From: Microbotryum violaceum
Lineage: Eukaryota
Assembly: GCA_001244265.2 (NCBI GenBank)
Contig: LN717261.1
Location: forward strand, 3,053,591 to 3,117,590
DNA length: 64,000 nt
Direction of reading: 5' to 3'
The notes under the pieces are model-generated. The model saw only the letters and a program-made list of their open reading frames with translations, was not told the DNA's origin and ran no database searches. Below, one piece after another: positions 1,310 to 50,703 of this stretch; position 1 is the first letter of the stretch, and each line of letters opens with the position of its first letter. The position numbers were made by a program, and so were the translations under genes.

Positions 1310-3702
1310 AGGACCCCCGAAAGCCCAGCCTGAGGCGCGTAGGTAAAATCCGCCAAAATCCCCGATTTTGGACCTCATTTGTCCACTAATTTTTGGATGT
1401 TTCGGCCAAAAAGGTCCCCAAAATGTCCAGTCTATCTACGCGCCTCGAAAAATAGCTCTAGAATTGCTTCAAATGCTCTAAAACATCTTCAAAAATCGCG
1501 AAAACGCCGTCCGGACGTTTTTCGCCCGGACCGAATCGCCGGAGCCCGCGCGCGCGTCAGCCGTTTCGGTTCTGCTTCGCCGAGGGCTCCTCACCTGCAC
1601 TTACTGCCTACCTCTTTGACTATGATTTAACGTGGCCATGGTATACATGTAACGTACAACGAGAGGCAAGCTCGATTGCAGTCACTCTGCGAAGCAGTAA
1701 GCTAGCTACCGTGAGGTGTACGAACCAAGTCCAATCGACAGTTGTTCTTCTCCTATGTTGCTGGCACAACTGGCATGTATTATGCCTCGTTTCAACACAA
1801 AGCAGACAAGAGAGCCGATTTTCAAAGGCGTAGCTGACGTGACGTTTCCGTCGATCGACCCAAACGGTGGGATCTTGGCGAATGCCGTGTATTGCCTTGC
1901 TCGCAATTGCATCCGTATCTGGGCAAGAATGGATATTATTGATGAGCACTCCCTGGGCCATATGTGCAGAGCACAATTGCAGCTCACGTCTTTGCGTCTG
2001 TCTTCGATGTACCCTATGTTTTCCGTCTCGTTTGCGGTCGAAAAGCGACTGAAGGCCGTTAGTCCTGTCCAACGAATGGACCTCGCAACTCCTGACACGG
2101 CTTCGAGACGGGCTGTACCCATTGAACGCACAAAGCCTCGGAGGACACTGGAGTGCATTTCACCGTGCTCGGACAATTTTGCTTTTGATGTGGGATCGGA
2201 AACTTGGGAAGTCGAGGTGGTGGTGCCGTGCCTTCCCTTGAGTAGGACAGCTCTGAGGTGGGCACATTGATGTGCCCGACGGTGCTCGATCAAGCTTTTC
2301 GGATCAAGCGCAAGCTGACGAGTGTCGTGACGCAGAAGGGATGGGAGCCGAAGAATTTGAGCCTGTGAAAGAATGCTGGTTCTGTTTAGTGTTGGTACAC
2401 GAAACCAATTGCTTAGATGAACCTACACGACCCGGCAAGTTTGCATTTGCTGTTACAATGACGTCGAGCAGGAAGCGTTCCTCTGCTTGAGCATCGGCCT
2501 CGTCATAGGCCTGCTGAACGGCAAGCCTAGAATCGGAAGAGATGAGTTATCAGCTCAGAGGAGGCTGGTACAGGTCTCATTGCACTCAACTTACGGTGCA
2601 GTATCATTGTTAAGGCCAAGAGCAGCTAAAGAGCGAACAGCGTGTTCAACTGACTTCCGCTCTTCCGGCTCCCGACGAGACCTTTCTCCAAGCCACGTTG
2701 TCCATAGGAAAAGCACGAAAAATAATCCCAATCAACCACGCCATCGAACAGACGAACAACTTGGCTGCTTACCAACGAAATCGAGCCGCGTGTCCAAGAA
2801 TGCGCTACACCCGAGGATCATTGAGGGGTATAGTGCTCCTCAATGAGCAGTGGCAGCAGCACCTCCAGAGCCTTAACGATGAGAGGCTGACTTTCGATGT
2901 CGACACCCAGATAATATTTCCATCTACTTTTGGCTACTGATAACGATCGAACGCATGCGCTCGGCGTAATCTATATGCCGCCAGATCCTTTCGACACCGA
3001 AAGGCAGCCGGTGCCCAGCGATAGCAATTGACCGGTAACCTTGCTTACGCGCCGCAGTAATTGCTCCACGATCCTTGAACTTGTCCGTCCAAGCATCGAG
3101 CGGCCTAGGAAGAGTATCAAACTCGAGAGGCTCGTCTTTCGACCATGAAAGCTGTATCTGGGTGTCTGCAATGGGTTGTCGAAGCGGAAGGCGAGAAGCT
3201 CGAGACACCCTCACGTTCAAGGGTGCCATTCGCTCGAAATCATCGTCAAGAAGCTCGATATCCGGATCGTCTAGATACATTTCGTCGAAGCTGGCTGAAG
3301 CGAGAACGTAGGATAATGACGATGATGGCACAGACGACGCGACGCGGCGGGGGAGGCAAGAGACGGCGCACTAAGACGAGACGGCTCGTTCAACCAGCCA
3401 AGAGGCCTATAATTTCAAAATCGAACCATTAGAGCCCTTGTTGTGAATTCGGTACAGGCCATAGTGTTTCGCGCGCGCTCCGCACGTTCTTGAGGGTCGG
3501 CAAACTCTGGCGTACCAAGCCCAACGTGGCTGAAATGGGCCCAGAGTTGTCCACTGGTACCTACGGGCCTAGGACCCCACCCCCACGGCGCACCCTGATT
3601 TGTCCACCCCCGACTACGCGCCTTCGCGATTTTGGCCCATCTGAAGCCCACAATTTGTCCAGTCGGGCACGACGCGCCTCAGGCCGGGCTTTCGGGGGTC
3701 CT
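1310..3702 (-). mobile_element. Non-autonomous, internally deleted copy (A) of the Ulp1/P-like DNA transposon family, with both TIRs and TSD
   Basis: 31-bp TIRs AGGACCCCCGAAAGCCC(A/G)GCCTGAGGCGCGT at 1310-1340 and 3672-3702; 8-bp TSD CTCGTGTC at 1302-1309 and 3703-3710. ORF 2924-3331(-) is homologous to 17017-17430, and ORF 1706-2293(-) to about 21790-22380. Confidence 0.85.
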
Positions 3703-3816
3703 CTCGTGTCCCTCCCGGCGCCTCATACCTACACAGGCGCACAGCCGCCGCCGCCTCTATTATAGCCACTGCTGTTTGCGCCTGTTTGGTCCTCTTCCAC
3801 CGGGCGACCGAACGCA

Positions 3817-13548: not shown

Positions 13549-13638
13549 AAGAAAAATAAATAAATAAAAAATAAATAAAAAATAAAAATAAAAAAAATAA
13601 AAGAAAAAAAAAAGAAAAAAAAAAGAAAAAAAGAAAAG

Positions 13639-13716
<78 letters not shown>

Positions 13717-13729
13717 GAAAAGAAAAAAG

Positions 13730-13784
<55 letters not shown>

Positions 13785-13809
13785 GAAAAGAAAAAAGAAA
13801 AGAAAAGAA

Positions 13810-13870
<61 letters not shown>

Positions 13871-14020
13871 AAAAAGAAAGAAAAGAAAGAAAAAGAAAAA
13901 AAAAAAGAAAAAGAAAGAAAGAAAAAGAAAGAAAAAAAGAACAAAAGAACAAAAAAAAAAAAAAAAAAAAAAAAAAAGAAAAAGAAAGAAAAAAGAAAAA
14001 AGAACAAAAAAAAAAAAAAA
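13549..14020 (+). repeat. About 470-bp poly-A/(AAAT)n/(AAAAG)n low-complexity tract
   Basis: Almost entirely A/G on the + strand; source of the spurious poly-Phe ORFs. Confidence 0.97.
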
Positions 14021-14056: not shown

Positions 14057-15860
14057 TCAGCCATTCAACTCAGCCCTTGTCAGTCCTCTACAGAAACTTC
14101 GTGATTGTGGGTCATTCGGATCCATCTCGTCTGTCAGCCCGAAAGGCTTCCCGCAGTCCAAGCACGCCCCGTCACACTCATGCACCGATCCGTCATCGCT
14201 TAGTTTTGACACCTTGCGTCGACAAGTAGTTTGCCCACATAATCGACAGTGCCTTGCCCCTTTTGTGGTACCCGCGCGCGTCAAAGCGCTGCTCGTGCCC
14301 AAGTCCGCGCTCGAACCAGCGTCGCTCGAGGCAGTTGCAACAAAGGGGAGGATGGATGACGTTGGAGGATTCGAAAAATCGACTTGTACCTCTGTAAGCC
14401 TCCCCAAGACAGGCGGTTTGTGACCGAGTAATGGCTTAGCCGCTAGCATGCTAACATCACGACCGCGGGAGGGATCGGTAAGCAAAGCTTGAATCACTAT
14501 GACGTCGTTCACACCCATGTTCATTGTGGCTTGAGCATTTGCCAGCGACGACCATCTCGGTGCCCATGTATTGACGTGCTCTGGCATCTGTGTGAGGATT
14601 GCGCTTCAGCTCAACATCACCATTCAGTGTGACACAGACGCGACATACTTTGTAAAAATGTCTAGTCCGTTGGCATACTTGTTCCAAAGCTCGGTAATCT
14701 CGAATATCCGACGATTTTGAGGAGCTCCCAGTCGTACCTTGCTTGAGAGATATCTGTATAGCGCTCGTTCGCTGGGTGTATGGACATAAAATACAGCGAA
14801 TCGAGTACCCTGACGTTTCGCTGGCCAGTCGTGGCGAAGCTTGCGATCGGTTGGCAGCCGGCTTTGCATATGCTGTATCGCCGGCGTGTTGTTTTGCAGC
14901 ATAGTTCCGTGGCGACCACTTGACGGGCTCCAAACGCAACGTCCCGCGCTCGACTTGATAGGGCTCGATCAAAAAGCGCATATGCGCTGTTGGCGACTGA
15001 ACAACAGGCACGATGCCGAACGTTTCGGTGGATGGGGTGTAGAGCAGCGGGTTGACTATATCTGACACGGTGGTTGAGTGCCGTGGGAAAACTGCCGAGG
15101 TTTTGCGCCTCAGACGATGTAATTCCACAGTGAGCCAGAGGTCGTAGTGCCCCACGAATGGTTTTCCGGTACGATTGAACGTCCCAACCTGCGAATACAA
15201 GGGATAATGGGTGAGAATGGTTGCCGTTTCTTCGAATTGCGATGGTGGAGTTGGACTGACCGTGAGATTGTGCACTAGCATGTAGTCAGCCATGCACGCA
15301 TTGACATGGCTCGGAGAAACACCAGACTTCGGAAACCGTTGGCGAAGGTTCCGATGGATGCCTCCTTCAAGTCTGTTGGTGTCGCGCTGGCAGAAATATA
15401 AACGGACACCGTCATCCGCCTTTCCATCTGGCCCTCGCAAGGCCCAAGGTCGGTGTACAGCTCGATGCCAACTGGATCCGATACTTGGCCTTTCCGAATC
15501 GCCTCAAGACATCTCTTCGCTGCCTCGTGCGCCGCTTTGTTGAAAAGTGGTTGCTTCGACTTCGCATCGACCGAGCTTCTCAAAGACCTCCCGGACCAAA
15601 GGCTCGAGAATGCCTGGCGGAGGGATCCATCGACGAACGCGTCTCCAAAGCTTCTTATTCCATACCGGCGAACGGACCGCTTCTTCCCACGTCATTCCGA
15701 ATTTTGCTAGGCGAGCCTCCATCAGGAGTCGATCACCCGCATTCGGGATGAAAACCGCATCGGAGAAGGCACGAGCAAAGGCTTTGGCAGCGCCATGTTT
15801 TTTGGACACATAGATCCGGTCAAAGAAATGCCAGAGATCGATTAGAATTTGCACAGCGGT
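14057..15860 (-). pseudogene. C-terminal half of a DDE transposase-like protein (MULE-related; DxxH and TNxxEGxH motifs), frameshifted
   Basis: DLWHFFDRI..KHG..F..AFSDAVF; RRWIPPP; PLFN; GQVSDPVG; LYFCQRDTNRLEGGIH; HNLTVGTFNRTG; Cys-rich C terminus. Confidence 0.55.
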
Positions 15861-16122: not shown

Positions 16123-16186
16123 TGCGCCAACTCAGTGCGCCAACTCAGTGCGCCAACTCAGTGCGCCAACTCAGTGCGCCAACTCA
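16123..16186 (+). repeat. 5 x 13-bp tandem repeat TGCGCCAACTCAG
   Basis: Read directly; no spacers. Confidence 0.95.
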
Positions 16187-16590: not shown

Positions 16591-19500
16591 AGGACCCCCG
16601 AAAGCCCAGCCGGAGGCGCATTTTTTTTTTGACATTTTGAGGACCCAAAATCCTGAAAATCGTCGAGGCGCATCGCAAAAAAATGACATTTTGGGACGAA
16701 ACACACGTTTCGCCCCCGAGCCGCATGGCCAGATTTTGACATTTTCCCGTGAGTCGGCCCAATTTTGGCCTACCCTGAGCAGCCTACGGCATCGCTTTGG
16801 GCCCGTTTGCCTTCGCTTCGAAACGCGCATCGCGATGCTCGCGCTTGAACAAGTCACTAGCCATTTTCGCTAATCACTTTAGTTCAGTGGCTGTTAGAGA
16901 ATATTAGGGATTAGATACCCCTATCGAGTAAGATAAAAATGACGGGGCCCCTGAGGTTCCGTTCCGCTTCACTTCGTTCTGACACTGGAGCATAGCACGA
17001 CGAAATAATTCCATGCTTGTTTCTTGACGAAGATCAGGACTACTATTTGCACGACGATGACTTTGATCGATTATCGCCGCTCACCAACATGACGGTTGCC
17101 GAGCTCCTCGCCTTCGATGTCGCTCCCGCCGACGCGTCTCTTCACATCGAGTTGTCCAAAGACGAGCCCACCCAGTATTCGACCTTACCCTACCCGACTC
17201 TTCAGACCAGAGACGCGTTTCTCGCTACCGATGCTCTGATCAATGCACGCAAGAAAGGATATCGATCTTTGGCCGTCGGGTCGACGTGTTTGCCGCTCGG
17301 CTATGGTCAGAGTACGACCGAGCAAAAGACGTTCAAAGCTGGGCGCTGCGAGCTCAACGATGGATGGACAAAATTATCGTTATCAACGAAGTCGACCGCA
17401 ACCGTATCGCTGTCGCACGTCGCATACTGAACGGATTGCAATGGCAAGAGCAAGACGGGCTTCTACCATTGCCTCTTCTTGCAAGTGGAACGAGTTTGGT
17501 TTATCTCCTGAGATTCTTAAGTCAGTACACCAATCCTTCAGCTGGCCACTCGTATTCATCTCGTATCTGAGGCAACTTGCTTATTCGCGTCTCTACCCAG
17601 GTCATGATTGGCTCGGTGAAGCCGCAGTGAACTTGTCAATTGAAAGCGTCCTTCGAGCTGGACGAGTGCAGAATTCCGATTTCGAAACATCGTATGGACT
17701 TATACCCTCTACCGTCATCTCCTTGTTAATGGCTCGCCCTCCCGACTCGGATCCTCATTCGGTCTTCAAAGCCTGCTTTTTCGGCCCGCCAAACCAGTAT
17801 CGGAATCTCATCGAGCTAGGCGATTGCATGCGCAACACGCCGACGTCAAAGTCAATCTGGTTTCTACCCCTCTGCTCCAACAGCCATTGGGTCCTGGCCC
17901 GCATCAACATGCACAAGCGGACATGGTCTGTGATCAACTCACTCTCCGCCACTCCGATCACCGCGGCTACTCGGACGGCCGTCCTTACGCTATTCAAATT
18001 TCTGAAGCTGGACATCAGAAACGAGTTCCCTCATACTCCTAAGGCGGAACAACAGGAAGACAGCTACTCGTGCGGGCCGGCTACGATCAATGCAGTGGAG
18101 ACGGAGGTGCTCGGGATTGGGTCATTCAACGCAGCGCGCGCTCACATGTCACGGCTCCGTCAATTCTGTCGTTTATCCTCTCTGGTTGGTGCTGTCGAGG
18201 ATCCCAAAGAAATCGAATCCATCGTTGCCACGGGCGCAAAATCAAAGGCAAAGTCTGGGAGGGGATCCGCTGCCGGAACACTGAGCAGCAAGAGCACGTC
18301 GGCAGAGTCCGGCAAGGCAGCGACAATCAAGCCAACAAACCAACGAGTCGCATCATCCTCAAAGAACCCGCCAACTTCTCGACTCCAAACGACCTTCACC
18401 AAGGCATCGAAGCCGACGAAAGCTCGAGAGCTCACCCCGAGGAGCATACGACGTGGGCTCGCGACCATCCGCCTCTTTTCAGGAGGCTTGCTGAAAAAGT
18501 CGAAGATCTTTGCCCGGGATCGAATGTCAACGTCAACAATCCAAAATACGTGCGGTGTGGACGATGTTATGTCTTGGTGCCAATGGCGGCCTTGCTGTGC
18601 AAGGCACGATTTGAATTACATCTCGGCAATAAGAAGTGTGTCAACCTCCAACCCATCAGCAATTTTCTTCAGACCTATCGCCTGTGGCTCAACTGCTCCC
18701 AGCCCCTCGCTAGGACCGTGCCCCGGCCTTACGTCTGAAACGGCGATACATTGTCTTTCATCAACTGCGGCGCAGGGTGGCGGGGCCCCTCCTCGACGGA
18801 CGCTTTGTTTGCGCCTCTATCCCAAAATTGGTAAACGACCAATGACGGAGCTCGAGAGGAAGGAGGTGGACAAATTGGAAGCAAATGAATGGAAGTGGCG
18901 CAACGATCATCGAGCACCGCGCATCATCAGTGTGAATTGTTGCAAGTATAGCGCTCGAGATTCGATCAACAAGGACGGACCAAGCTTACCGTGTGAAGAA
19001 TACGCGAAGCTTCCTAAGAATTCATCCTGTCGAGCAGCTCTTCGACATCAATATGCTGCTGGCGCAACTCGCAAATACACAACAAGAAATATGTCGCGGG
19101 CGATACACTTCTCTCGGCCATCTACCGGCGACATCATGGACTAGAATAGATCCTGGATGACAACAGTCAAGGGACCGTGTATCTACGATTCGCGCAAGGT
19201 GTGGCCTCAGGAGAATTTGACGGAGCGAACATCTTGGAGGGATTGGTGAAAGCGGCTACGGTCAAGCACGATCGGATGGTCAAGGGCAAATCAATGCGAG
19301 GCTTTGTGCGGTCCGAAGCGCTGCGTGACTTCGATCAAGCCATGGCGCTGGCGTCTCCAATGGCTCTGAGAGTACTGCAGGCTACAATCGGCGCATCCAC
19401 AAGCCGAAAACTGCAGTGAGTACCGTCATTCTTTCGTTCTTCCAATTCAACCTCATACTGAATGATCGAGGTGCTTGCAGAATGGACCAAGCGACATCAG

Positions 19501-22500
19501 GCAGGATGCGCCTCGGCCTCGACAAGTCCAACATGGATCGTGTCTGCGCCAAACTCGAAGCAGACGACCTAACGTTCAATTTACACGTAGAAGACACGAA
19601 GTGTCGATCCAGGATGCGAACCACTCCATACTACTCAGAAGACCTCAGTTTAGAGCGCGAACTACGTACGAAGGGCATATTCCGCCACGAGCTGATCGGA
19701 TCAATTGGTCCGCCACGCATCTACGAAACTCCGGGTGAACTCCCTCATATGTTCAGCGGACCTGACCCCCGGTTGCTGGAACCAAAGTGAGTGACAATGA
19801 TTCTTTTAAGTTTGTACTTCATTTCCACGAGGCTTTAACATGTGTCGCCTCTTCATTCAGATCCGAGCTTACATGATAGCACCGAACGATGTTGGCTCCC
19901 CAGCACAGGTGTTTGCCGCTTTTGTGATCGGCGAAACTACGAACGCGGAGGACGCGACCGAACAGTTACATTCAGTGATACAAGAGTTAATAAAACGTTG
20001 CGTCGCACAACTTCTGGTATCCATCTCCGCAGATGGTGCGGCAAGCGAGGGTGTGCTGCAACGTAATGTTGCCGTCCTTCTGCGCGATCAGGGTGGCGCT
20101 ATTGCTCAAACCGGATCAAGGAACGCGTCATCATACACCCTCCCCTCCCCAGATCCGGACGGAGTGTTTCCTGAGATCATTATATCGACCGTCAACGTCG
20201 CGGGAACGCCGATAGTCTTCTGTCGGGACGAAAAACACCTGGCCAAATGTCTGAGGAACGCTATCGACTCTGGAGCAAGATTGCTGTCCGGTGATCTCGG
20301 ATGCATTGCCTACCAGGATATGCTCACTATCCTGGAAGGAATGGAGTCGCGTCGTACTCTGTCTCGTCGTGATGTGGTCGGGCGTGATCGTCAAGACGAC
20401 AATGCAACACATCGGGCATTCTCCAAGGCGACGCTCGAACTCGTAACCGAACTCGCTGAAGACAAAAAACTCGACCCCGATGCGGTCGTATACCTATTCC
20501 TATGTGGCGAGTTACACGATGCCATCCAGAATCGGTCGCTTCAGCCCCTTGAACGTATCAGGATGTTGCTCGTTGTCAGGTATACGTTCGAAGCGTGGTA
20601 TAACTTCGCCCGAAGTCGTCCAGGATATAGCTCGCACTCGTTCCTCGCCAAAGAAACGCTTGATGGGGTCAGGAAGATGGTTGACTCAACGATTGCTCTC
20701 GTCCGCAACTATCGAGATTTTTGGCCGAAGGAATCGTTCATTCCCTGGCGGCATGGCACAGAAATGGTGGAGCACTTCTTCGGGGGTATACGCCAGATTG
20801 TAAAGGAGTTCGATGCTCTAGAGTTCTTGCAGGTGCGTTCTTCATGAATCAATCTAATCTATACAGTAGTCAACCCGGCTAGAATCCGACAGGCAACTGG
20901 CAAAGTCACTGCACTCTTGGAGCTCATGAGGAAGTTTAAGACCGAGGCGGCGGGATCACGTCAAGGCTACCATCATACCTACAACGACCTCGACGATCTT
21001 GACCTTGTTGCGATGCGAACGTACCCCAGTGATGGCGACATCTCTCTCACCAGTTTTGCAGCGGCAAATACTGCGCGTGAACTGCTTTCAGGTTTACGCA
21101 TGTGGGAGCCTGTGCAACGCATCGCGTCCAACAGACGCAACCAAGGTCCGCAACCTGACATACTCGTCGAGGACGTACTCGCCCGTGGCACAACAGTTCA
21201 AGGTATGGAGTTGCGAACGAGTTGGTCTATAAGTGATGCGTATCTGACACGGGATACCATGCCCACTTGAAGTAGATCTTGAAGACCATCATCCTACCAA
21301 GGAAGATCAAGGTCTGCTCCGCACCGAATTGCTGGATTCTGCTCTTGATGGCATGCGGCGTAGCACGTGCCAAGGTGTTGTGAAACCAGACCCAAACGAG
21401 CGGGAAGCTGTCGACCGTGCAATTCGATCGCTTGCAGCTCTGGACTTTGACGTTGAGGCAGCCTTGTGAGTGGACACTTCTTTGTGCCACGTGCGCTGAA
21501 GCGTTCTTCTACCTTTTAATCCGGACCTCATATTGCTCTCCTTTCTCATTGGCCAGATTCGACGTGCAAATCGCTTACGACGAAGCTGATAGACAAGCTG
21601 AGGAACGCTACGTACTCGAGACCATTGAGAAGGCAAACAGCTCATTACGTCCAATCGTGCGTCTACCAAGCTCAACTAGCGTAATTTCGATCTGAGCTCA
21701 TGCATCTTCGGTACTATACAGCCTACACACTTGAAGCTTCCGCCTCTTGTTGATGCTCGCGATACCAGTTCCTCGCTGAACTGGGCCAGCTTGATTGCCC
21801 ATCGAGCTGCTCATGAGTGTAGCCACCTCAGAGCTGTTCTACTCAAAGGGAGGCCAATGTAATTGAGCGACACAAGTCGCGGAGAGGCAGGCTTAAAGAT
21901 TAGCAATACAGAGCAAGGACGCAGTGCAGTACATTCACGCGTCTTGAAAGGGTTGGTGCAGTCCACGGGACCATCTCGCTTCGAAGACATTGCGGGCACC
22001 GCAAGGAGCTTTCGCTGGACTGGAGGTGGCCAGGTGGCCCGAGCGCTCACAACAAGCGAGATTCAGAAGAACGCCTATATTGAGGATGGCCGCATTCAAG
22101 TGAGTTGTTGCTGAATTTAGGAACGAAAGCAACTGGATCTAATGTTTTGCTGGTCCTATACTTTTAGGAAAAGCTCCCTGAGAGAGACAAGCAGTATGGA
22201 GCGCTAGCACAACGCTGTCCTCATTTTGGATCGCTTGACGGAGCTGTAACCGCTGCCACACCATTGGAGATTAGATCTCTGATCTGCCTTGGCCTCAAGT
22301 TTGGCATGCATTCACTCAGCGGCGATCAAACTGTTTATGGAGAAGAAGCGCTGTCTATCGGAATTGGTACGTTGTTTTGAGTGGCAGTTGAGGAAGTTCT
22401 CGTTTGACACAAGTCTTGTGTCCTACAGTGCGACACATCTACAGCAGAGTGACAACAAACCACTGCAACCAAGACACGCTTGCCTTGTTGGTTCTACTCT

Positions 22501-23085
22501 CAAATGTCGTCGTACAGGAGCTTCGCCTCATCAAGAAAACATGCTATTCCACACACCTCATTGATGGTACTATGCCGTTCCGCATGATTGATGGTCGACA
22601 GGTCATCGAGTCATTAGGCCCGTCAACGACTACATATCGTTCAACCACGGACCTTACCTCATGTTACCCGGACGAGCGCCTAATCAGCACGAGCGCACAT
22701 GCCGAGCAAAGATTTGCCGCCCTTCGGAGCGTGCCCGGCCTGCGAGATGCCGCCGGCAGAACCTCTACAAGCCGCACAAATGCCACCGCGGAAACAAGGA
22801 GCTCAACTTCAGCAAAAAGGAAGTCTGCCAACGAAACAGCGAGCCAGCCAGCAAAGCAAGGAAGGCTTGTTTGAAGCGTGGAGCCACGCGCAACACCAGC
22901 CGAAGCGACGCGCGCCGCAAGCCACTTTCGATAGGCCGCCGCGCGCCCGCAAACGCTCGGAACGCGTTTTCGAGGACTTTTGAGCGATTTTTGGAGCATG
23001 TACAACACATTTTGATCATATTTCCGAGGCGCATGCGAAATTTTGACATTTTGGGGCCAAAATAGGATTAAAAACTTTGACAAAA
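16591..23085 (+). mobile_element. Near full-length copy (B) of the Ulp1/P-like DNA transposon; right TIR lost at a Helitron insertion
   Basis: Left TIR AGGACCCCCGAAAGCCCAGCCGGAGGCGC at 16591; 22900-23085 is homologous to the reverse complement of the subterminal region 1370-1560 of copy A. Confidence 0.8.
16939..22874 (+). pseudogene. Spliced Ulp1-like protease + zinc-finger + P-superfamily-type DDE transposase gene, with several frameshifts
   Basis: ATG 16939 with an intron ending 16995, in frame with 17017. Protease motifs HWVLARI (17885), INSL, QQEDSYSCG (C 18071). Transposase motifs VEDTK (D 19593), ISADG (D 20032), DEKHLAKCLRN (20227), TEMVEHFFGGIR (E 20770). Confidence 0.75.
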
Positions 23086-26000
23086 CCAGTGGGAACCCGT
23101 TAAATTAACGGGAGGATGAAAATTAAATAGCAGAATCGTGATCTCAGTTGAAGGTAAAACACACAATACAAAGGACAACTTCAAAACTATTCCCCATTCA
23201 TTGCTCTGAGAACAGAGCGGAATACTGGGTTTGGGGTCGCGGTGGCTGCCGCTGCCGCTCGATCAACGGCTTGTAGGTCGTCGTCATCATCGGCGGGGTC
23301 GCGAGAGGGCAGTAGCACCTTGATTCGATCAACACTCATGGCTCGAGACAATGCCACATACAGCTGCCCATGAGTGAAGACGGGATGTAGGGAGAGATCG
23401 ACGCCAACACGATCGAGTGATTGACCTTGGGCTTTGTTGATCGTCATGGCCAAGGCAACGCGAAGCGGGAATTGGAGCCGGCGCATAGTGAAACCAAGTT
23501 GGCGACTGCCAGTCGCATTTGTCTCAAGTCGCACGCGAGGGATGAAGACCGTGGCGCCCGCTCGACCTCCGGTCAAGATGATGGCTTGAATGACTCTCGA
23601 TCTTGCGTGCGACACGATCAGGCGGGTACCGTTGCAGAGGCCCGCGTCTGGGTCCAAATTGCGAAAAAGAACGACGGGGATCCCTTCCTTGAGACGCAAG
23701 TGATGCGCGGGGAAGTTGGGTGGGTTGATTGAATGTAGATACTCTGGCGAAATCAGTTCCGGCGCCATTCCACCCCCAGTATCGCCTGCCTCAACGACCT
23801 CGTCTGCGCTGCGATACTCGATGTAGTCGCCATTGAACTCTTCCAGCAGCTTGGCATTGATGCGATCGACCGTTGCATTATGCGGAGCTAGGATTGCCTG
23901 ACGTGAGAACAGCTGAATCAGGTCTTCGAAGGACTCCTTGTTCACGGTCCTTAAACCGGGGTAGACAAAGTTGATCAACCCTTCGGCCGTTCTTTGACCG
24001 TCCGGAAGCAGCAGGTAATCAGGCAGCTGCGAAACGGATAGAAGGGGTCTTAGTGTCGGTTGGTTGGGTAAAAGAGGGGAGCCAAACGTACTGCAATCTT
24101 GTCGTATGGGTGCATGTTGGCAGTTCCATCTCCCACGGTGAGTAGCCATTCCGCAAAGTCGCGCGTTCGAGCCAATTGAGCCTCGTCCATCGCATCAGCG
24201 TTCGAGCTGAGACGCATGTTCTCGGTAAGTCGCAAGACACGAACGTCGCGCCAGAAGTCTGCCTTGATGAGGGATGCATCGACGATTTGACCGGGAGTTC
24301 CTTTGGGAACGACAGGAAGGCACTGGCGAAAGTCCCCTACAAATTGGAAACCTCGTTAGCATGCCGCTGTTCAGAGCGGAGGCGGAAGAGCCCAACTGAC
24401 CCGCAAAGATCATTGTCACCCGCCGAAGTGCTCCTCGGTCTCTCGGAGATCACGCAGTAAACGGTCGACAGCTTCCACCGCGAATCGATGCGCCATTGGG
24501 GCTTCATCCCAAATGATGTGGTGGTACGCAGCATCAGCGCGAGATCACTCTCCCTGTCGACTGGACACGTCGAGGTTGGCAAGGTGTCGAGTGGGATTCG
24601 AAAAGTTGAATGCGCCGTGTGTCCTCCCTTGAGAAGCAACGCCGCTACTCCGGACGACGCCACCGCAATCGCTTGGTCGCCTCGAGCTCGCACAGTATCG
24701 AGAAGGGCATTTTCCACAAAAGTCTTGCCAGTACCCCCAGGTGCTAGCAGGAAAAACACATGCTGCGGCCCAAGGTTGTTGTCGCGCATCTGATCGACGA
24801 CATCGAGCTCGACCGCGCGAAGACACTCGTCAAATGCAATTCGTTGGTCGTGGTTCAGACGGGCATGCGCCGCTTCGGCATCTTGCGCGCATTGCTGGCG
24901 ATCAAAACGAGGAAGCCGTTCCTCGAGACGATCAAACAGCCGCACTTCGTCCTCGGTCAGCTCGGGAAGATCAAAGAAGGCCAAAGTTCGATCGTTTGCC
25001 GCAAGGAGGAGACGAATCTTGTTGAGGGTCCACAGGCGGATGGTTTGATCGTTGACGGGCACGTCTTCATAGCGTTCGATGTGATAACGGGCATCGTCGC
25101 TAAGAGAAGCAGTGACGATCCAGCAAAGCTGGTGGGTTGGCAACCGTCGCATGGATGAGCATGAACACGAATAATCGGCGTAGTTGGTCACCGGTTTCGA
25201 TCTGTGCAGCTTCCCTGAGATAGATGTGATGCTCGCCATCGTCGGCGAGAAGTCCGCGAGCGGCGCAAGCGGCGCGATAGGAAGGATACACGACGTCTTC
25301 GAATACGAGCAGGTCCGCAAACGATGTCGGGCCCATGACGACCTCGAGGAGCAGTCTGAGGTAAAAGCGCTCCCCACTACGCAGTGGGACGGTGTAGATT
25401 CGTCCAATGACATTGCGATCATGGACTCGGCGTTTCCAGCGCAACTTCTCCTTATTCCAGGAGTAGTAGCGCGGCACATTCGTGTAGAGCAACGTGGTAG
25501 TGAGCTCGCCGTCGGGAGCTGCAGCGCACAGGTCAAAGAAGCCGGTCAGTTTGGAGCGAGTGGGCGGAGTGTCGAGGGGCAGCGGTTCATTGGGATTGAT
25601 CTGCACAGATTGTTGATTCTCCAGATGGACCGGTAGTCGATTGACGGGTGGCCACACTCTACCGACCGAGAATCTGAATAGGCGGTGACCCGCTTCTGGA
25701 GCACTGATGTAGCGACCTTCGACGAACTCGTTGATCTCATCTCGAACCGGTTCGTCCTCGCGAGCCCCTTCACCGTTCGCTGCACGCTCAACACGCGCCA
25801 CAGCTCGATCCGGACCTTTGCACACATACTTGAAGAGGTACTTGATCGCGCCGATCGTTGTCACAGCCTCCACATTGATATGCGCATTGTATTTGGCGCA
25901 GAGATAAGGCGAGTACGGCACGCAGTCACCATCGTTGTAGATAACACCCCCTTGACAACGGCGTGGCGAAAGCGTCGGCGATACAACGGGTAGCCTTCAG

Positions 26001-28281
26001 GGTGCATGCGGGTGTGGGGGTTCTGTTCGCGAGGAAAATGGTGCTTGCACCTCGGATTACCGTACTTGTCCTTCTCCATGCAGGGCTGAGTCGAGTTTCC
26101 GCCACACTTGCCATGCAGCATGTGCTTTGTGACGGTCTCGTGGAGATCAGGATAGCGCGAAGGATCGGGTATCTCGGCCGAGATCATCTTGTCGATCGCT
26201 TCCGTCGACAAAGGATGATCGTCCGGCGCGAGGGTGATGAGGATATGGGCATGTGGCAGGCCCCGCTTCTGATACTCATTCACATGTGTATGCGTCAGAA
26301 CCACGCCAAAACAGCCTGCACGTTGCTTGTTGCCAAAAACGTCATCGCAGAGTCGGTTCAGCTTGGCTTCAAACACTCGTGCAATGAGATCCGGACGGTT
26401 GCATGCTTTGTCGTTCGGCCCCAGTGCAGCCTTGATTTCCGGTCATTCGGGGTTGCACGTCACCGTGATGAACAGCGAAGGCTTTCCATATTTGACGACG
26501 CAAGCCATCGCATCTTGGTAGCGCTGCGTGATCTCGCGCGGACTATTCTTGAACGTCGAGCCCAAAATCACCGAACGTCCAATTTGATCCGGGGTCAGGC
26601 CGTTGGCAACAGCGTCGGTGATGCCTTGGGCCGTGGTGAGGCGCAGACTTTCTTGATGCAACCGGATGCAGTTGAGTCGATCGGTCTCGACTTGGGAGTA
26701 TCCGTCAATCACGAACTCGAGGAAGAGACGCTGGGTGACATGCGGAATGGAGAAGTAGTCGTCGCGTTCGTGCAAGTGATATGCAAAGTATTGGGAACGC
26801 GAAACTCGGGTTGATCCACCTCGACCCCTCTTGTTTGATCTTCGTCCTAGATTTTCGAACAATTTATGTCAGTCTGAGGGTGCGTCTCAACAGAGAGGTA
26901 TATGAGAATGAGCCGAAGACGCTTAGCTTACGTTCACCATCACCATTCTCTTCGTCCTCCTCGTCGCCTTCATCCTCATCGTCCTCCTCTTCGTCTTCTT
27001 CATCTGGACCAAGGCCGTCAAGTAGCTCGCGCAATTGGACACCATTGTCAATCTGCTCTCGGTTTCTGGCGATGGGCGGCCCAGCTTGGTCGAACCCGCA
27101 AAGAGGAATGTTGGGGTGGAAGCCATCTTCCCCTGCAGGAAAAAGTAGTGGGTAACGGAGAGGCATCACGGACGGATGGAGCGAGCTAACGACTTGGTAC
27201 TTGGGCCGACCCTCGGGACATCGAGCACCGTGCACCTGGAGAATAAGGTCTTGACGTCCACGATCTCCCGTGTTGGTGTCGGAATCGCAGATAAGCATCG
27301 CCATTTCCGTGCTCGACGTAGGAAGGTTGTGGGTGCGTCGGTCTCGGCCTGGTGGTAGGCAGAGGCGCAGGACCCACTCTTTGGCCGTATCCCAACCCGC
27401 GCGGGCTTTGGCCGATGCGAACTCACTCACAAAGCGATTGCCGGTGCGCAACATGGACTCGAGCTTGGTCAAAGTAGATCGTTGCATGTGACTGTCTGCG
27501 CTGTCGGGTCCTTGAAGTCGTGTGTCGGTGGCCTCGGCCGGGTCGATCAGCCATGTCTGGGCAAAGGCTGGGCGTTGATTCACGGCAGGGATCAGGGCAC
27601 CGAGTCGATGATAGAGGCGGCCAAACACGCGAAACACGGGGGGTCCTAGCGTGCCCACTTGAGTTTGGTCCCAGAGGGCAGCGAGCGAAGTGAACGACAA
27701 CGCGTTGTTGTACGACCGGGCATTCTCGCGGAATGCTTTAGCTTCTGTGTGGGTGGGTAGAACAGTTCAGCATGTGGGTCTACTGCAGACGAACGTTGTT
27801 GGACGGAGCAACTGACCGCTATCCGAGCCTTGAAGAAGCTGCCGATACTCGAGATTGGGCTGGGGAGGGCGAGGTAGCCGCACCTTGCCTTGCGAGCAGC
27901 ACGCGCTGAAGTGTCTGGTCGACTTGGACCTTTCGCACTCCCAGTGCCGAGCCTTGCAGTGGGTGCACACGGCCGTCTGGGGCCGAGGTCGTCGCGGATC
28001 GAAACGTGGGCTTGAGGGGTTTCAGCGCGATTCGAGCCCGGCGCACTCGCCTTTGCGGAGGAGGTGGTGGTGGGGCGAGCCCAGCGTCGAGTTGGCCATC
28101 GCGCTGACCACGCTGTCCGTTCTGCACAGCTGCACGGCGGGCTCGTATACGTGTCGCAATGCCAAGATCGGTTGAATTGTTGTCATGACGCGCCGGGGGC
28201 TGATTCTGTTGATCGGAGCGGGACGAAGAGGAGGGTCGAGCCGCGGGGCGCCCAGCAGCGGGCGCTCGAGCAGGCCCATGG
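23086..28281 (-). mobile_element. Autonomous-type Helitron, degenerate; 5' end replaced by a copia element
   Basis: 3' hairpin CCCGTTAA-t-TTAACGGG followed by CTGG|T ending at 23086; Rep and Pif1 coding sequence inside. Confidence 0.93.
23187..28200 (-). pseudogene. Helitron Rep(HUH endonuclease)-Pif1 helicase
   Basis: CTHCKARHW..CCSQGKV zinc finger; YGKPSLFITVTCNPE; EYQKRGLPHAHIL; KYLFKYVCKGPD; APGGTGKT; QFPLRVALAMTINKAQGQS; HGQLYVALSR. In-frame stop at 26443 plus frameshifts; start approximate. Confidence 0.92.
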
Positions 28282-28488
28282 TGTCATCGTGTACACTACA
28301 TTGCAGGGGCGCTCTCAACTCCAGCATACGGAGATTGGGGGATGGGAACTCGGGCGCGCTCGGACCTCTTTAGATTCTGACTTCGATTACCCGAGGCAGC
28401 GACTAGCGCGGCTCTCCCTCTCTTTTCCCTTAACGTTCCCTATCCTCTTCTACTCGGCATCTTCGTTTGCTCACTGCGCTGCTCCTCA
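28282..28488 (+). repeat. 5' LTR (207 bp, single copy of the internal 57-bp unit)
   Basis: TGTCA...CTCA; matches 31264-31470. Confidence 0.9.
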
Positions 28489-31263: not shown

Positions 31264-31549
31264 TGTCATCGTGTACACTACATTGCAGGGGCGCTCTCAA
31301 CTCCAGCATACGGAGATTGGGGGATGGGAACTCGGGCGCGCTCGGACCTCTTTAGATTCTGACTTCGATTACCCGAGGCAGCGACTAGCGCGGCTCTCCC
31401 TCTCTTTTCCCTTAACGTTCCCTATCCTCTTCTACTCGGCATCTTCGTTTGCTCACTGCGCTGCTCCTCATAGGTTAGTGTAATACATTTCGAACGTTCC
31501 CTATCCTCTTCTACTCGGCATCTTCGTTTGCTCACTGCGCTGCTCCTCA
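31264..31549 (+). repeat. 3' LTR (286 bp) with a 57-bp internal direct repeat
   Basis: Repeat copies at 31414-31470 and 31493-31549, separated by TAG|GTTAGT... Confidence 0.9.
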
Positions 31550-31667: not shown

Positions 31668-32680
31668 GATGTCCCGATGGTCGGCCCAAGTACCAAGTCG
31701 TTAGCTCGCTCCATCCGTCCGCGATGCCTCTCCGTTACCCACTACTTTTTCCTGCAGGGGAAGATGGCTTCCACCCCAACATTCCTCTTTGCGGGGTTCC
31801 ACCAAGCCAGGCCGCCAATCGCCAGAAACTGAGAGCAGATCGACAATGGTGTCCAATTGCGCGAGGTACTTGCCGGTCTCGGTCTGGATGACGAAGACGA
31901 ACAGAAGGACGAAGACGGCGAGGAAGGGGACGAAGAGAATGGTCATTGTGAACGTACGCGTCTTCGGCTCTTTCTCTGAGGCTCCATTCTGTCTAAGGCG
32001 CAAGCACAGACTGACATTGAACTTTTGAACACCTAGGATGAAGGTCAGGTAAAGGGGTCGAGGTGGCGAGTCTCGCGTTCACAATGTTTTGCGCGCTACT
32101 TGCCAAAGGCGACGAGTACTTTTCAATCCCGCATTGCACCCAACGTCCCTTCCTGGAGTTTGTGATTTACGGATATACTCCCAAGTCGAGACCGATCGAC
32201 TCAACACATCCGGTTGCATCAAGAGAGCCTACGCCTCACCAAGACCCAAGGCATCAACGGCTTGACCCCGAACCAAATTGGACGTTCGATGACCTTGGGC
32301 TCGACGTTCAAGAATAGACCGCGCGACATCATGTGGCAGCGATACCAAATTGCGATGGCGTGCGTTGTCAATCATGGAAAGCCTCCGCTGCTCATCACGA
32401 TGACGTACGACCCTGAATTACCGGAAATCAAGGCTGCACTGGGGCCGAACGACAAAGCATGCAACCGTCCGGATCTCATTGCACAAGTGTTTGAAGCCAA
32501 TCCGGTAACAAGCGACATGCAGGCTGTTTTGGCGATGAATGTAGGATGAATGTATTTTGTTTCTTTGCTGTGCTTCGTGTTGTGTTTTTCTAACCTCTGA
32601 GCTGAAATCATGTAGACTGTTCGGTTATCCTGCTATTTTTTGAATTTGATCCTCCCGTGAATTTAACGGGTTCCCACTGG
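31668..32680 (+). mobile_element. 5'-truncated non-autonomous Helitron (deleted subfamily)
   Basis: Homologous to about 26320-27220 (reverse complement), then jumps to the 3' end; hairpin and CTGG|T at 32680. Confidence 0.88.
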
Positions 32681-48851: not shown

Positions 48852-48857
48852 TAGGAG

Positions 48858-50703
48858 AGGACCCATGAAAGCCCAGCCTGAGGCGCGTAGGTAAAATTCG
48901 GGAAAATCGCTGATTTTGGACCTCATTTGTCCACCATTTTTTGGAATTTTCGCCCAAAAAAGTCCTCAAAATGTCCAGTCCATCTACGCGCCTCAAAAAA
49001 TAGCTCTAGGATTTTTTGCTCTAAAACATTTCCAAAAATCGCGAAAACGCCGTCCGGACGTTTTTCGCTCGGGCCGAATCGGCGGAGCACGCGCACGTGT
49101 CAGCCAGTTCGGTTCTGCTTGGCTGAGGCTTGCTGCCTTCCTTTTTGACCCTACATCTTTCACACCCTTCATTTGATTATTCAAGGACACAGAAGCGTTC
49201 CTTAATCCGTTGCAGCGTCGAAGAAAACAGAACCTTACCTCAGCCTGCTGGCTTAAGTCGAAGACACGCTCCCCGAGGTATGCGACTGAATCCTGGGGTG
49301 CGAGAGTGAGGGCGGGCGTTGAGGATGATTCCAAGGATTGAATAATTTGTCGAGCATCGAGTCCAAAGAAGCGAGTCGTGCCGTCAATCATATGCGTTGA
49401 ATAACGGCCCTTGCTCACAAGTCGCCATTCTTGGAGGACGACATTCGAGATAATGGGAGGGAGTCGGTCTCCGCTCTGTCGCAATGATTTGACGTGGTCT
49501 TGGCATACATGTAACGTACTACGAGAGGTAAAATCGATGCCAGTCACTCTGCAAAGCAGTAAGCTAGCTACAGTGAGCTGTACGAACTAAGTCCAATGGA
49601 CAATTGTTCTTCTCCTATGTTGCTGGCGTCACAACTGCCAGGTATGATGCTTCGTTTCAATCCGAAGCAGACAAGAGAGCCGATTTTCAAAGGCATGGCT
49701 GACGTGACGTTTCCGTCAATCGACCCAAACGTTGGGATCTTGGCGAATACCATGTATTGCCTTGCTCGCAATTGCATCCGTACCTAGGCAGAAATGAACA
49801 TTATTGATGAGCACTCTCTGGGCCATATGTGCACAGCACACAATTGTGGCTCACTTCTTTACGTCCCTCTTCGATGTATCCTATGTTGTCTGTCTCGTTG
49901 CGGTCGAATAGCGACTGAACGTCCCTTGTTCTGTCCAACGAAGGGACCTTGCAACTCCTGACACGGTTTCGAGACGGGCTGCACCCATTGAACGCACAAA
50001 GCCTCGGAGGACACTGGAGTGCATTTCACCGTGCTCGGACAATTTTGCTTTTGATGTGGGATCGGAAACTTGGGAAGTCGAGGTGGTGGTGCCGTGCCTT
50101 CCCTTGAGTAGGACAGCTCTGAGGTGGGCACATTGATGTGCCCGACGGTGCTCGATCAAGCTTTTCGGATCAAGCGCAAGCTGACGAGTGTCGTGACGCA
50201 GAAGGGATGGGAGCCGAAGAATTTGAGCCTGTGAAAGAGTGCTGGTTCTGTTTAGTGGTTCTGCAAGAAGACAGTTGCTACTTAAATGAACCTACACGAC
50301 CTGGCAAGCTTTCATTTGCTGTCTCAATGGCGTCGAGTAGAAAGCGTTCCTCTGCTTGAGCATCGACCGCGTCATAGGCCTGCTGAATGGCAAGCCTAGA
50401 ATTGGAAGATACGTATCATCAGCTCGGAGGAGACTGGTAGGTCTCAAGCACTCAAATTACAGTGCAGCATCATTGTCAAGGCCAAGAGCAGCTAAAGAGC
50501 GAACAGCGTTTTCAACTGACTTCCGCTCTTTCGGGTCCAGCACGACGAGACCTTTCTCCAAGCCACGTTGTCCATAGAAAAAGCACGAAAAATAATCCCA
50601 ATCAACCACGCCATCGGACAGACGAACAATTTGGCTGCTTACCAACGGAATCGAGCCGCGTGTGCAAGAATGCACTACACCCGAGGATCATTGAGGGGGT
50701 ATA
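48858..50703 (-). mobile_element. Truncated copy (C) of the Ulp1/P-like transposon (3' part only)
   Basis: TIR AGGACCCATGAAAGCCCAGCCTGAGGCGCGT at 48858; colinear with 1310-2832; retains the C-terminal coding region (48993-49547) partly deleted in copy A. Confidence 0.85.

What the first reader, a model, noticed from the sequence alone, without database searches (positions are those of the whole stretch)
16591..23085. P-element-type transposon in a basidiomycete: THAP-less transposase fused to a Ulp1-like protease
Seen in the sequence: one spliced gene with a Ulp1/C48-like protease (HW..., QQEDSYSCG), a CxxC..H..C finger, and then VEDTK / ISADG / DEKHLAKCLRN / VEHFFGGIR. Known: these parallel the P-element/THAP9 motifs FDEMK, VSDxG, DxxHLxKxxRN and ENFFGxIR, and Ulp1 cargo is mostly associated with MULE and some other superfamilies rather than P. 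Inference: this is a distinct fungal P-like lineage in which the protease replaces THAP, perhaps removing SUMO/Ubl marks involved in silencing. Such ORFs are likely annotated as hypothetical proteins. I cannot confirm novelty without a search.
Basis: partly seen in the sequence, partly recalled or inferred. Interest (0 to 1): 0.88.

Follow-up and report, generated by a model that had tools for sequence, protein, structure and literature searches.

The report
Decayed fungal P-type transposon with Ulp1 protease
This is a broken copy of a cut-and-paste transposon, related to the fruit-fly P element, whose transposase is fused to a SUMO-protease-like domain; the family is widespread in mushrooms, yeasts and smut fungi but is annotated there only as hypothetical proteins.

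Summary

**P-type core.** An AlphaFold model of a 62%-identical relative matches the Drosophila P element transposase far better than anything else: Z 27.4 with 395 residues aligned, against 12.4 for the next entry.

**Real mobility.** An internally deleted sister copy at 1310-3702 has 31-bp inverted repeats and a perfect 8-bp target duplication.

**Ulp1 fusion.** Ulp1/C48 lies in the same exon as the zinc modules and the start of the transposase HTH. It was found in 21 of 28 long homologues by Pfam. A relative's model matches yeast Ulp1.

**No THAP.** THAP was not detected. Two conserved Cys/His modules sit where a DNA-binding domain is expected, so the protease is an addition, not a replacement.

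**This copy is dead.**
- The start codon is lost.
- It carries five frame-breaking indels and two in-frame stops.
- The 3' inverted repeat is cut off by a Helitron at 23085.

**Prior art.** P elements with 8-bp duplications in rust fungi have been in Repbase since 2011 (PMC3164196). My searches found no description of the Ulp1 fusion or its wide spread. I rate it a new variant of a known kind.

The parts
16591..16621 (+). 5' terminal inverted repeat (31 bp) of the main copy.
   Evidence: The same 21-nt core occurs at 1310(+), 3702(-) and 48858(+): 4 matches against 0.00 expected. A contig of another genome joins 23084 to the reverse complement of 16621-16591.
16613..16695 (+). Two subterminal direct repeats, GAGGCGCAT...TGACATTTTGRG. 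Candidate transposase-binding sites (inference).
   Evidence: 5 and 9 matches in the window against 0.57 and 1.82 expected. Nearly all lie at ends of these elements.
17005..17520 (+). Exon 1, the N-terminal conserved region. The start codon position reads ATA here and ATG in other copies. There is a 10-nt deletion at 17291.
   Evidence: P0152 residue 1 aligns at 17005. A>G at 17007 and +10 nt after 17291 are seen in other copies. ATA was read. The GT..AG intron 17521-17600 was read.
17601..19415 (+). Exon 2: Ulp1 domain, Ser/Lys-rich linker, two zinc modules and the start of the HTH. It is broken by indels at 18434, 18663 and 19079 and by TAG at 19147-19149.
   Evidence: tblastn of P0152/P0002; indels relative to other copies; stop read.
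17843..18163 (+). Ulp1/Peptidase_C48 catalytic domain. His in SNSHW, Asn at the Asp position (INSL), and Gln and Cys in QQEDSYSCG.
   Evidence: Pfam E 3.4e-5, 24.2 bits against cut-off 20.7. H, D, Q and C are invariant or nearly so in 28 homologues. The relative P0019's model matches 1euv_A at E 2e-5, TM 0.55.
18556..18639 (+). Zinc module 1, Cx2Cx17Hx5C. It lies in another frame than the flanking ORF in this copy.
   Evidence: The family pattern is [C/H]x2C..Hx3C. The relative's model shows two strands plus a helix at pLDDT 85-88.
18716..19012 (+). Zinc module 2 (PCPGLT...GGG...W.N.H...C...PCxxC). The last Cys is mutated to Tyr here.
   Evidence: A family HMM finds it in 48 of 48 proteins with at least 700 aa before the core.
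19481..19786 (+). Exon 3: end of the HTH and the first RNase H strand, with the (D/E)D of VEDTK at 19590-19595. There is a 1-nt deletion at 19765.
   Evidence: Introns 19416-19480 and 19787-19860 are GT..AG. In the model, D138/D139 lie on strand 1.
19861..20832 (+). Exon 4: RNase H core with the second Asp (ISADG, D at 20032-20034), the all-helical P-type insertion domain starting at DEKHLAKCLRN (20227), and the Glu helix EMVEHFFGGIR (20761-20793).
   Evidence: Open frame 19810-20847. 584 cluster representatives at E<=1e-3. Fold match to 6p5a. Residue positions against secondary structure.
20893..22874 (+). Exons 5-10, the C-terminal conserved region. Exons: 20893-21202, 21276-21465, 21557-21656, 21722-22099, 22168-22366, 22429-22874. 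TAA at 21860-21862.
   Evidence: GT..AG introns read. tblastn of P0152, P0158, P0161 and P0164. Stop read.
23026..23084 (+). 3' subterminal repeat and the last retained base of the element. The 3' inverted repeat is missing.
   Evidence: In another genome the inverted repeat follows 23084 directly. No minus-strand match near the main copy was found in the window.
23085..28282 (-). Inserted Helitron (Pif1-type helicase), not part of the element. Its 3' end has a hairpin plus CTGG.
   Evidence: Pfam PIF1 and Pif1_2B. The same terminus occurs at four places in the window: 23085, 32681, 41800 and 46802.
1310..3702 (-). Internally deleted sister copy (2393 bp) of a related subfamily. It has 31-bp inverted repeats with 1 mismatch and a perfect 8-bp target duplication, CTCGTGTC, at 1302-1309 and 3703-3710.
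48858..50703 (-). Truncated third copy: 3' inverted repeat plus C-terminal exons only, about 90% identical to the small copy.

Best explanation
Window 16591-23084 is a decayed, 3'-truncated copy of an autonomous cut-and-paste DNA transposon of the P superfamily. Intact copies are about 6.5 kb, with 31-bp inverted repeats.

The single multi-exon gene would encode about 1,750 aa in intact copies. Its parts, in order, are:
- an N-terminal conserved region;
- a Ulp1/C48 cysteine-protease domain;
- a disordered linker;
- two Cys/His zinc modules;
- a P-type HTH;
- an RNase H-like DDE core split by an all-helical, P-type insertion domain;
- a long C-terminal region.

**Shown:** the fold, the domain order, the inverted repeats, the 8-bp target duplication in a sister copy, internal-deletion derivatives, and the decay of this copy.

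**Inferred:**
- The zinc modules and the HTH bind the subterminal repeats and the inverted repeats.
- The DDE core excises the element and inserts it with an 8-bp stagger, as in the P element, possibly with GTP as cofactor.
- The Ulp1 domain removes SUMO or another ubiquitin-like modifier from a chromatin or repair factor, or from the transposase itself.
For: **Fold.** The AlphaFold model of P0001 (62% identical to window ORF 19810-20847; pLDDT about 90 over residues 20-545) matches 6p5a_A. Foldseek gives E 7.1e-13 and target TM 0.67. VIA-align gives Z 27.4, rmsd 3.7 and 395 of 442 residues aligned, against 12.4 for the next entry.

**Catalytic positions.** D138/D139 lie on strand 1, D261 directly follows strand 4, and E504/E507 lie on the helix after the insertion domain. 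These residues are invariant in 28 homologues.

**Weak but colinear Pfam hits.** Tnp_P_element HTH hits 6 of 40 and 2 of 28 members, best E 1.4e-5. TNP-like_RNaseH_N hits 3 of 40. The ESM Atlas's nearest clusters are P transposases, score 0.92.

**Ends.** The inverted-repeat core occurs 4 times against 0 expected. A perfect 8-bp duplication flanks the deleted copy. In another genome the 3' inverted repeat follows 23084 directly, and deletion joints 17080>22492 and 17242>22205 are seen.

**Fusion.**
- Peptidase_C48 hits the window ORF.
- It hits 21 of 28 long homologues.
- A family HMM finds the Ulp1 region in 48 of 48 proteins with at least 700 aa before the core; 28 of those were training rows.
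- The P0019 model matches both the P transposase and yeast Ulp1.
Against: - No Pfam P-family model reaches its curated cut-off on any member I looked at individually. The best was 22.9 bits against a cut-off of 23.
- A profile of 40 members finds no P transposase among PDB sequences, so the link rests on predicted structure.
- The structure is of relatives, not of the window's own broken protein.
- No target duplication can be read for the main copy because its 3' end is missing.
- In all Microbotryum copies seen, the Ulp1 triad Asp is Asn, so the protease may be weakened there.
- There is no transcript evidence. The runs laid behaved as DNA contigs.
- GTP use and the protease substrate are untested.
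Confidence: 0.85

Rival explanations
1. It is a hAT-superfamily element. hAT elements also make 8-bp duplications, often carry BED-type zinc fingers and have an insertion domain in the RNase H fold.
For: There is an 8-bp duplication. Zinc module 1 has a Cx2C..Hx3-5C pattern that I recall as BED-like. Hermes appears among the fold matches.
Against: Hermes scores only Z 9.9 with rmsd 7.0 and 288 residues aligned, against Z 27.4, rmsd 3.7 and 395 aligned for the P transposase. No hAT dimerisation domain or zf-BED Pfam hit appears in the 40 + 28 members. The only transposase families hit are P families.
Confidence: 0.04
2. The protease and the transposase are two neighbouring genes that gene finders have merged.
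For: There is no RNA evidence. The gene models of relatives are automatic, and some are clearly forced around frameshifts.
Against: The Ulp1 domain, both zinc modules and the first part of the HTH lie in one uninterrupted exon, 17601-19415. The window's own 634-aa open frame links Ulp1 to zinc module 2. The same order is predicted in genomes of many genera.
Confidence: 0.05
3. It is a domesticated host gene of P-transposase origin, like THAP9, rather than a mobile element.
For: Relatives are annotated as ordinary proteins. Catalytic residues are conserved across distant fungi.
Against: Three copies lie in one 64-kb window. There are inverted repeats, a target duplication and internal-deletion derivatives, and the termini have higher contig depth than the interior. 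Copies carry frameshifts and stops.
Confidence: 0.03
4. The Ulp1 domain is a self-processing protease that cuts the polyprotein, for example at the long disordered linker. On this view it is not a deSUMOylase acting on host factors.
For: A 160-aa linker with pLDDT below 50 separates Ulp1 from the rest in the P0019 model. Poxvirus core proteases of the same fold, which process viral proteins, are among the fold matches.
Against: The best fold matches are Ulp1 and SENP enzymes bound to SUMO. No cleavage site is known.
Confidence: 0.2

Closest known systems
Drosophila P element transposase (PDB 6p5a/6pe2) and the P superfamily, including THAP9.
   Same: It shares the HTH, the RNase H core with D, D and E at the canonical positions, and an all-helical insertion domain between strand 5 and helix 4. 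It also shares 31-bp inverted repeats, an 8-bp target duplication and internal-deletion derivatives. The P element values come from PMC7776569, passages read.
   Different: No THAP domain was found; Cys/His modules take its place. An N-terminal Ulp1 protease is fused. The protein is about twice as long (about 1,750 aa, against 87 kDa for the P transposase). Sequence identity is 13-14%, and the Pfam P models stay below their cut-offs. GTP binding was not tested.
Repbase fungal P elements of rust fungi (P-1_PSt, P-1_MLP, P-2_MLP, P-N1_MLP, P-N2_MLP).
   Same: They are basidiomycete P-superfamily elements with 8-bp duplications and non-autonomous derivatives (PMC3164196, passages read). A Melampsora larici-populina protein (P0128) is in the family found here.
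   Different: I could not see the Repbase entries, so I do not know whether they carry Ulp1 or are the same lineage. P0128 (1083 aa) has only about 300 aa before the core and shows no Ulp1. A survey of 1,730 fungal genomes reported P as 'single occurrences', 11 with a domain (PMC5751038, Table 1 read). Here 584 cluster representatives match.
Ulp1-carrying transposons of other superfamilies: MULE/Kaonashi, Ginger1 and oomycete Cryptons.
   Same: A C48/Ulp1 domain is encoded by, or fused to, the transposase. Its role in transposition is unknown (PMC2836005 and PMC3212892, passages read).
   Different: In Ginger1 the protease is C-terminal to an integrase-type transposase. In Cryptons the enzyme is a tyrosine recombinase. 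Here the protease is N-terminal to a P-type transposase.

Membership tests
P superfamily of DNA transposons | RNase H-like DDE core with the P-type helical insertion domain and a preceding HTH. | tested here: met
   The model of relative P0001 against 6p5a_A gives Z 27.4, with 395 of 442 residues aligned and model 41-538 against chain 137-565. The next entry scores 12.4. Foldseek E is 7.1e-13.
P superfamily of DNA transposons | 8-bp target-site duplication. | tested here: met
   CTCGTGTC lies at 1302-1309 and 3703-3710, flanking the deleted sister copy. This cannot be read for the main copy because its 3' end is missing.
P superfamily of DNA transposons | Terminal inverted repeats. | tested here: met
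   The sister copy has 31 bp with 1 mismatch. In another genome the main copy's 5' repeat is found inverted directly after 23084.
P superfamily of DNA transposons | Sequence match to the Pfam P transposase models (PF12017, PF21787, PF21788, PF21789) at curated cut-offs. | tested here: inconclusive
   PF12017 hits 6 of 40 and 2 of 28 members, and PF21787 hits 3 of 40. The hits are colinear. The best one I looked at individually scores 22.9 bits against a cut-off of 23. The window ORFs have no hit.
P superfamily of DNA transposons | [quoted passage not shown] | tested here: not met
   There is no THAP hit in 40 members at E<=1 or in 28 members at E<=0.01. THAP is stated to be restricted to animals (PMC7776569), so I treat it as a feature of the animal branch, not of the superfamily.
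P superfamily of DNA transposons | GTP as cofactor. | not testable with these tools
   Only the fold of the insertion domain is shared. The binding residues were not compared.
Peptidase C48 (Ulp1/SENP) | Ulp1 catalytic-domain fold and profile match. | tested here: met
   The window ORF scores 24.2 bits against cut-off 20.7. 21 of 28 homologues match, best E 1e-13. The P0019 model against 1euv_A gives E 2e-5 and TM 0.55.
Peptidase C48 (Ulp1/SENP) | His-Asp-Cys triad plus the oxyanion Gln. | tested here: inconclusive
   H, Q and C are present in the window. Q and C are invariant, and H and D are at least 90% conserved, in 28 homologues. The window and the Microbotryum relatives have Asn at the Asp position.
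BED-type zinc finger | Profile match to zf-BED. | tested here: not met
   No Pfam zf-BED hit. The ESM Atlas gave nothing for the region. Only the spacing of the Cys/His ligands and a strand-strand-helix prediction resemble it. The resemblance is from recall.

The most novel reading that the evidence does not exclude
An ancient P-superfamily clade spans the Basidiomycota, and its transposase is obligatorily fused to an active Ulp1-type deSUMOylase. The protease would be part of the transposition mechanism. It could strip SUMO from silencing or repair factors at the element, or regulate the transposase itself. In this clade zinc modules take the place of THAP. The clade has been missed by domain-based surveys of fungal transposons.
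Probability: 0.3. Interest if true: 0.75.

Novelty: new variant of a known kind. Interest (0 to 1): 0.55.

Why it matters
P elements are a textbook system, yet they are thought of as animal elements with a THAP domain, and fungal surveys list P as a rarity.

This work shows a large basidiomycete family: 584 cluster representatives, drawn from smuts, rusts, yeasts and mushrooms. It has the P fold, inverted repeats and 8-bp duplications, but a different DNA-binding head and a conserved, fused Ulp1 protease.

That gives a tractable case for asking why unrelated transposons (MULE, Ginger, Crypton and now P) repeatedly acquire SUMO-type proteases.

It also explains many 'hypothetical' or 'ubiquitin-like protease' genes of 1,500-2,000 aa in fungal annotations.

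Tried and rejected
- **No whole genome.** None is held for the window, so copy number and intact copies could not be surveyed.
- **PDB by sequence.** phmmer with the window ORF and a profile of 40 members both found nothing relevant.
- **Word-based homologue search.** It returned only 3 and 12 hits and added little.
- **ESM Atlas on the zinc region.** Nothing useful; best score 0.77.
- **RNA evidence.** No RNA holder was listed. The four runs laid behaved as unspliced DNA contigs, so they say nothing on splicing or expression.
- **The missing 3' inverted repeat.** I looked for it elsewhere in the window, beyond the Helitron. No minus-strand match was found apart from the small copy's.
- **Zinc modules.** I did not obtain a single-domain fold for them. 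In the 946-aa model the search list is filled by the transposase and Ulp1 matches, so their fold class remains open.
- **Earlier notes of this scan.** Nothing turned up.
- **Literature.** Searches for P plus Ulp1 in fungi found no description of the fusion. Supplements and Repbase itself could not be seen.
- **KDZ/CACTA reading.** I considered it at the outset and dropped it: no such Pfam hit appeared, and the fold is P-type.
Full report
**Observation**

- SNSHW at 17876-17890 and QQEDSYSCG at 18050-18076, in the 634-aa open frame 17240-19144.
- A Cx2Cx17Hx5C finger at 18556-18639.
- VEDTK at 19587-19601.
- ISADG, DEKHLAKCLRN and EMVEHFFGGIR at 20023, 20227 and 20761, in the 345-aa open frame 19810-20847.

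The 634-aa frame hits Pfam Peptidase_C48 above its curated cut-off (E 3.4e-5, 24.2 bits against 20.7). The other frames hit nothing in Pfam.

**The transposase core is P-type**

The 345-aa frame finds 584 cluster representatives at E<=1e-3 among 1.84 billion proteins. Many are 1,400-2,000 aa long, with the match at about residues 800-1,300. The ESM Atlas puts the frame nearest to clusters of P transposases, score 0.92.

I aligned 40 homologues (A1) and folded the first, P0001, a Microbotryum lychnidis-dioicae protein that is 62% identical to the window frame. The model has pLDDT about 90 over residues 20-545.

Fold searches gave these matches:

| Target | Foldseek E | VIA-align Z |
|---|---|---|
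| P element transposase 6p5a_A | 7.1e-13 (target TM 0.67) | 27.4 (rmsd 3.7, 395 of 442 residues, model 41-538 on chain 137-565) |
| P element transposase 6pe2_A | 8.6e-13 (target TM 0.69) | 26.7 |
| Transib | 1.7e-2 (6pqx_A, rank 34) | 12.4 |
| Tn5 | not in the Foldseek rows shown | 11.4 |
| RAG1 | about 1e-3 | 11.0 |
| Hermes (hAT) | 3.5e-4 | 9.9 |

The conserved acidic residues sit where an RNase H transposase needs them:
- D138/D139 lie on strand 1.
- D261 comes straight after strand 4.
- E504/E507 lie on the helix that follows an all-helical insertion domain, residues 327-500.

These residues are invariant in 28 long homologues. The insertion domain starts with the QDSKH..KT.RN motif, which corresponds to DEKHLAKCLRN in the window.

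At the sequence level the link is weak but specific:
- Tnp_P_element HTH hits 6 of 40 and 2 of 28 members, best E 1.4e-5.
- TNP-like_RNaseH_N hits 3 of 40.
- The hits are at the expected positions but just under the cut-offs, for example 22.9 bits against 23.
- A profile search of PDB sequences found nothing.

**It is a mobile element with P-like ends**

The sequence AGGACCCCCGAAAGCCC(A/G)GCC occurs four times in the window, at 1310(+), 3702(-), 16591(+) and 48858(+). None is expected by chance.

The pair at 1310 and 3702 bounds a 2,393-bp element on the minus strand. It keeps only the N-terminal and C-terminal coding pieces. It has 31-bp inverted repeats with one mismatch. It is flanked by a perfect 8-bp direct repeat, CTCGTGTC, at 1302-1309 and 3703-3710.

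The Drosophila P element has 31-bp repeats, 8-bp duplications and internal-deletion derivatives (PMC7776569, passages read).

The main copy starts with the repeat at 16591-16621. A contig of another genome joins 23084 directly to the reverse complement of 16621-16591. Intact copies are therefore about 6,525 bp. The same run set shows deletion joints 17080>22492 and 17242>22205.

A composite subterminal motif, GAGGCGCAT...TGACATTTTGRG, occurs twice behind the 5' repeat and once before the 3' end. I take these to be candidate binding sites (inference).

A third, truncated copy lies at 48858-50703 on the minus strand.

**The Ulp1 protease is part of the same gene**

From GT..AG introns in phase and tblastn of Microbotryum proteins, I read ten exons from 17005 to 22874. 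A further possible 45-nt intron inside exon 1, near 17400, is left open.

Exon 2 (17601-19415) alone holds the Ulp1 domain, a Ser/Lys-rich linker, both zinc modules and the start of the HTH. The protease and the transposase head therefore cannot be separate genes unless there is an internal promoter.

Evidence that this architecture is general:
- Among 28 long homologues from many genera, 21 hit Peptidase_C48, best E 1e-13.
- With HMMs built from those 28, the Ulp1 region and zinc module 2 are found in 48 of 48 proteins that have at least 700 aa before the core. Zinc module 1 and the N-terminal region are each found in 44 of 48. 28 of the 48 were training rows.
- A model of P0001's relative P0019 (946 aa) matches both the P transposase (E 2.3e-7) and yeast Ulp1 1euv_A (E 2e-5, TM 0.55, 20% identity).

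The Ulp1 Gln and Cys are invariant, and the His and Asp are at least 90% conserved. In the window and in the Microbotryum relatives the Asp is Asn.

**THAP is absent but not replaced by the protease**

No THAP hit occurs in the 40 + 28 members scanned. Between Ulp1 and the HTH lie two conserved modules:
- [C/H]x2C-x17-Hx3-5C. It is predicted as two strands and a helix at pLDDT 85-88.
- PCPGLT...GGG...W.N.H...C...PCxxC.

The first recalls a BED-type finger in ligand spacing. That is my recollection only; no zf-BED hit was found. I infer that these modules, not the protease, do the job THAP does in animals.

**This copy is dead**

Relative to contigs of other copies, the window has these lesions:
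- ATA for ATG at 17005-17007.
- A 10-nt deletion at 17291.
- Single-base indels at 18434, 18663, 19079 and 19765.
- TAG at 19147-19149 and TAA at 21860-21862.
- Substitutions such as the first D of DDTK changed to E, and a zinc-ligand Cys changed to Tyr.

The two indels at 18434 and 18663 put the finger in a different frame from its flanks, although the flanking frame stays open.

At 23085 a Helitron 3' end abuts the element. It has a hairpin, CCCGTTAA.TTAACGGG, then CTGG. The same terminus occurs at four places in the window: 23085, 32681, 41800 and 46802. The 3' repeat is not elsewhere in the window.

Several M. silenes-dioicae gene models switch frame between 20376 and 20478, where the window is intact. 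Those copies are therefore broken too, but elsewhere.

**Distribution and prior knowledge**

Named members come from these genera:
- Smuts, rusts and yeasts: Microbotryum, Phenoliferia, Naganishia, Melampsora.
- Agaricomycetes: Schizophyllum, Steccherinum, Artomyces, Cylindrobasidium, Hohenbuehelia, Pleurotus, Amylostereum, Trametes, Phanerochaete, Ceratobasidium, Psilocybe, Sistotremastrum, Coniophora, Mycena, Marasmius.

All are annotated as hypothetical or 'ubiquitin-like protease' proteins, apart from one Marasmius protein named as a methionine-tRNA ligase. A tree of 69 full-length cores shows a deep radiation; 94 partial rows were left out.

What is already in print:
- P elements in rust fungi, with 8-bp duplications, were reported and deposited in Repbase in 2011 (PMC3164196, passages read).
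- A survey of 1,730 fungal genomes lists P as 'only Pucciniales & Allomyces' in Repbase, with 11 domain-bearing copies (PMC5751038, Table 1 read).
- Ulp1 domains are known in MULE, Ginger1 and Crypton elements (PMC2836005 and PMC3212892, passages read).

My literature searches found no account of a P-Ulp1 fusion. Repbase and paper supplements could not be checked, and they may hold it.

**Verdict**

This is a decayed copy of a P-superfamily transposon whose transposase is fused to a Ulp1-type protease and lacks THAP. Three of its parts do not: that the protease replaces THAP, that this copy is an intact gene, and the degree of novelty.

Noticed in passing
window 23085-28282 (- strand); related pieces at 31668-32684, 39792-41800 and 46799-48852: A Helitron family with a Pif1-type helicase. 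All four 3' ends share a hairpin plus CTGG followed by T. One copy inserted exactly between the P-like element's interior and its 3' inverted repeat. Another ends 5 bp from the inverted repeat of the third P-like copy.
   Followed up: partly
window 28281-28495 and 31263-31477: Two 215-bp direct repeats that are 100% identical, with open frames between them. They look like the LTRs of a very young retrotransposon nested beside the Helitron.
   Followed up: no
window 16123-16186 and 1130-1215: A 13-bp tandem repeat (TGCGCCAACTCAG, 4.9 copies) lies about 400 bp outside the main copy's 5' end. A similar repeat lies just outside the small copy's 3' end. This may be a preferred target or another repeat family.
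   Followed up: no
window 13552-14020: A 469-nt A-rich tract (period 22, mostly A) in a low-GC stretch (GC 0.43, AT skew 0.35). It may be the tail of a non-LTR retroelement.
   Followed up: no
window 14457-15503 (- strand): A 348-aa open frame with no Pfam hit, just outside the element's 5' end. It remains unidentified.
   Followed up: partly
window 51278-55805: Copia-type polyprotein frames (Pol_BBD hit). They lie next to the truncation point of the third P-like copy.
   Followed up: no
window 20376-20478, against proteins P0002, P0152, P0154, P0158 and P0164: Five Microbotryum silenes-dioicae gene models all change reading frame here, whereas the window and the wider family stay in one frame. 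Those copies seem to share a frameshift that the gene finder bridged.
   Followed up: partly
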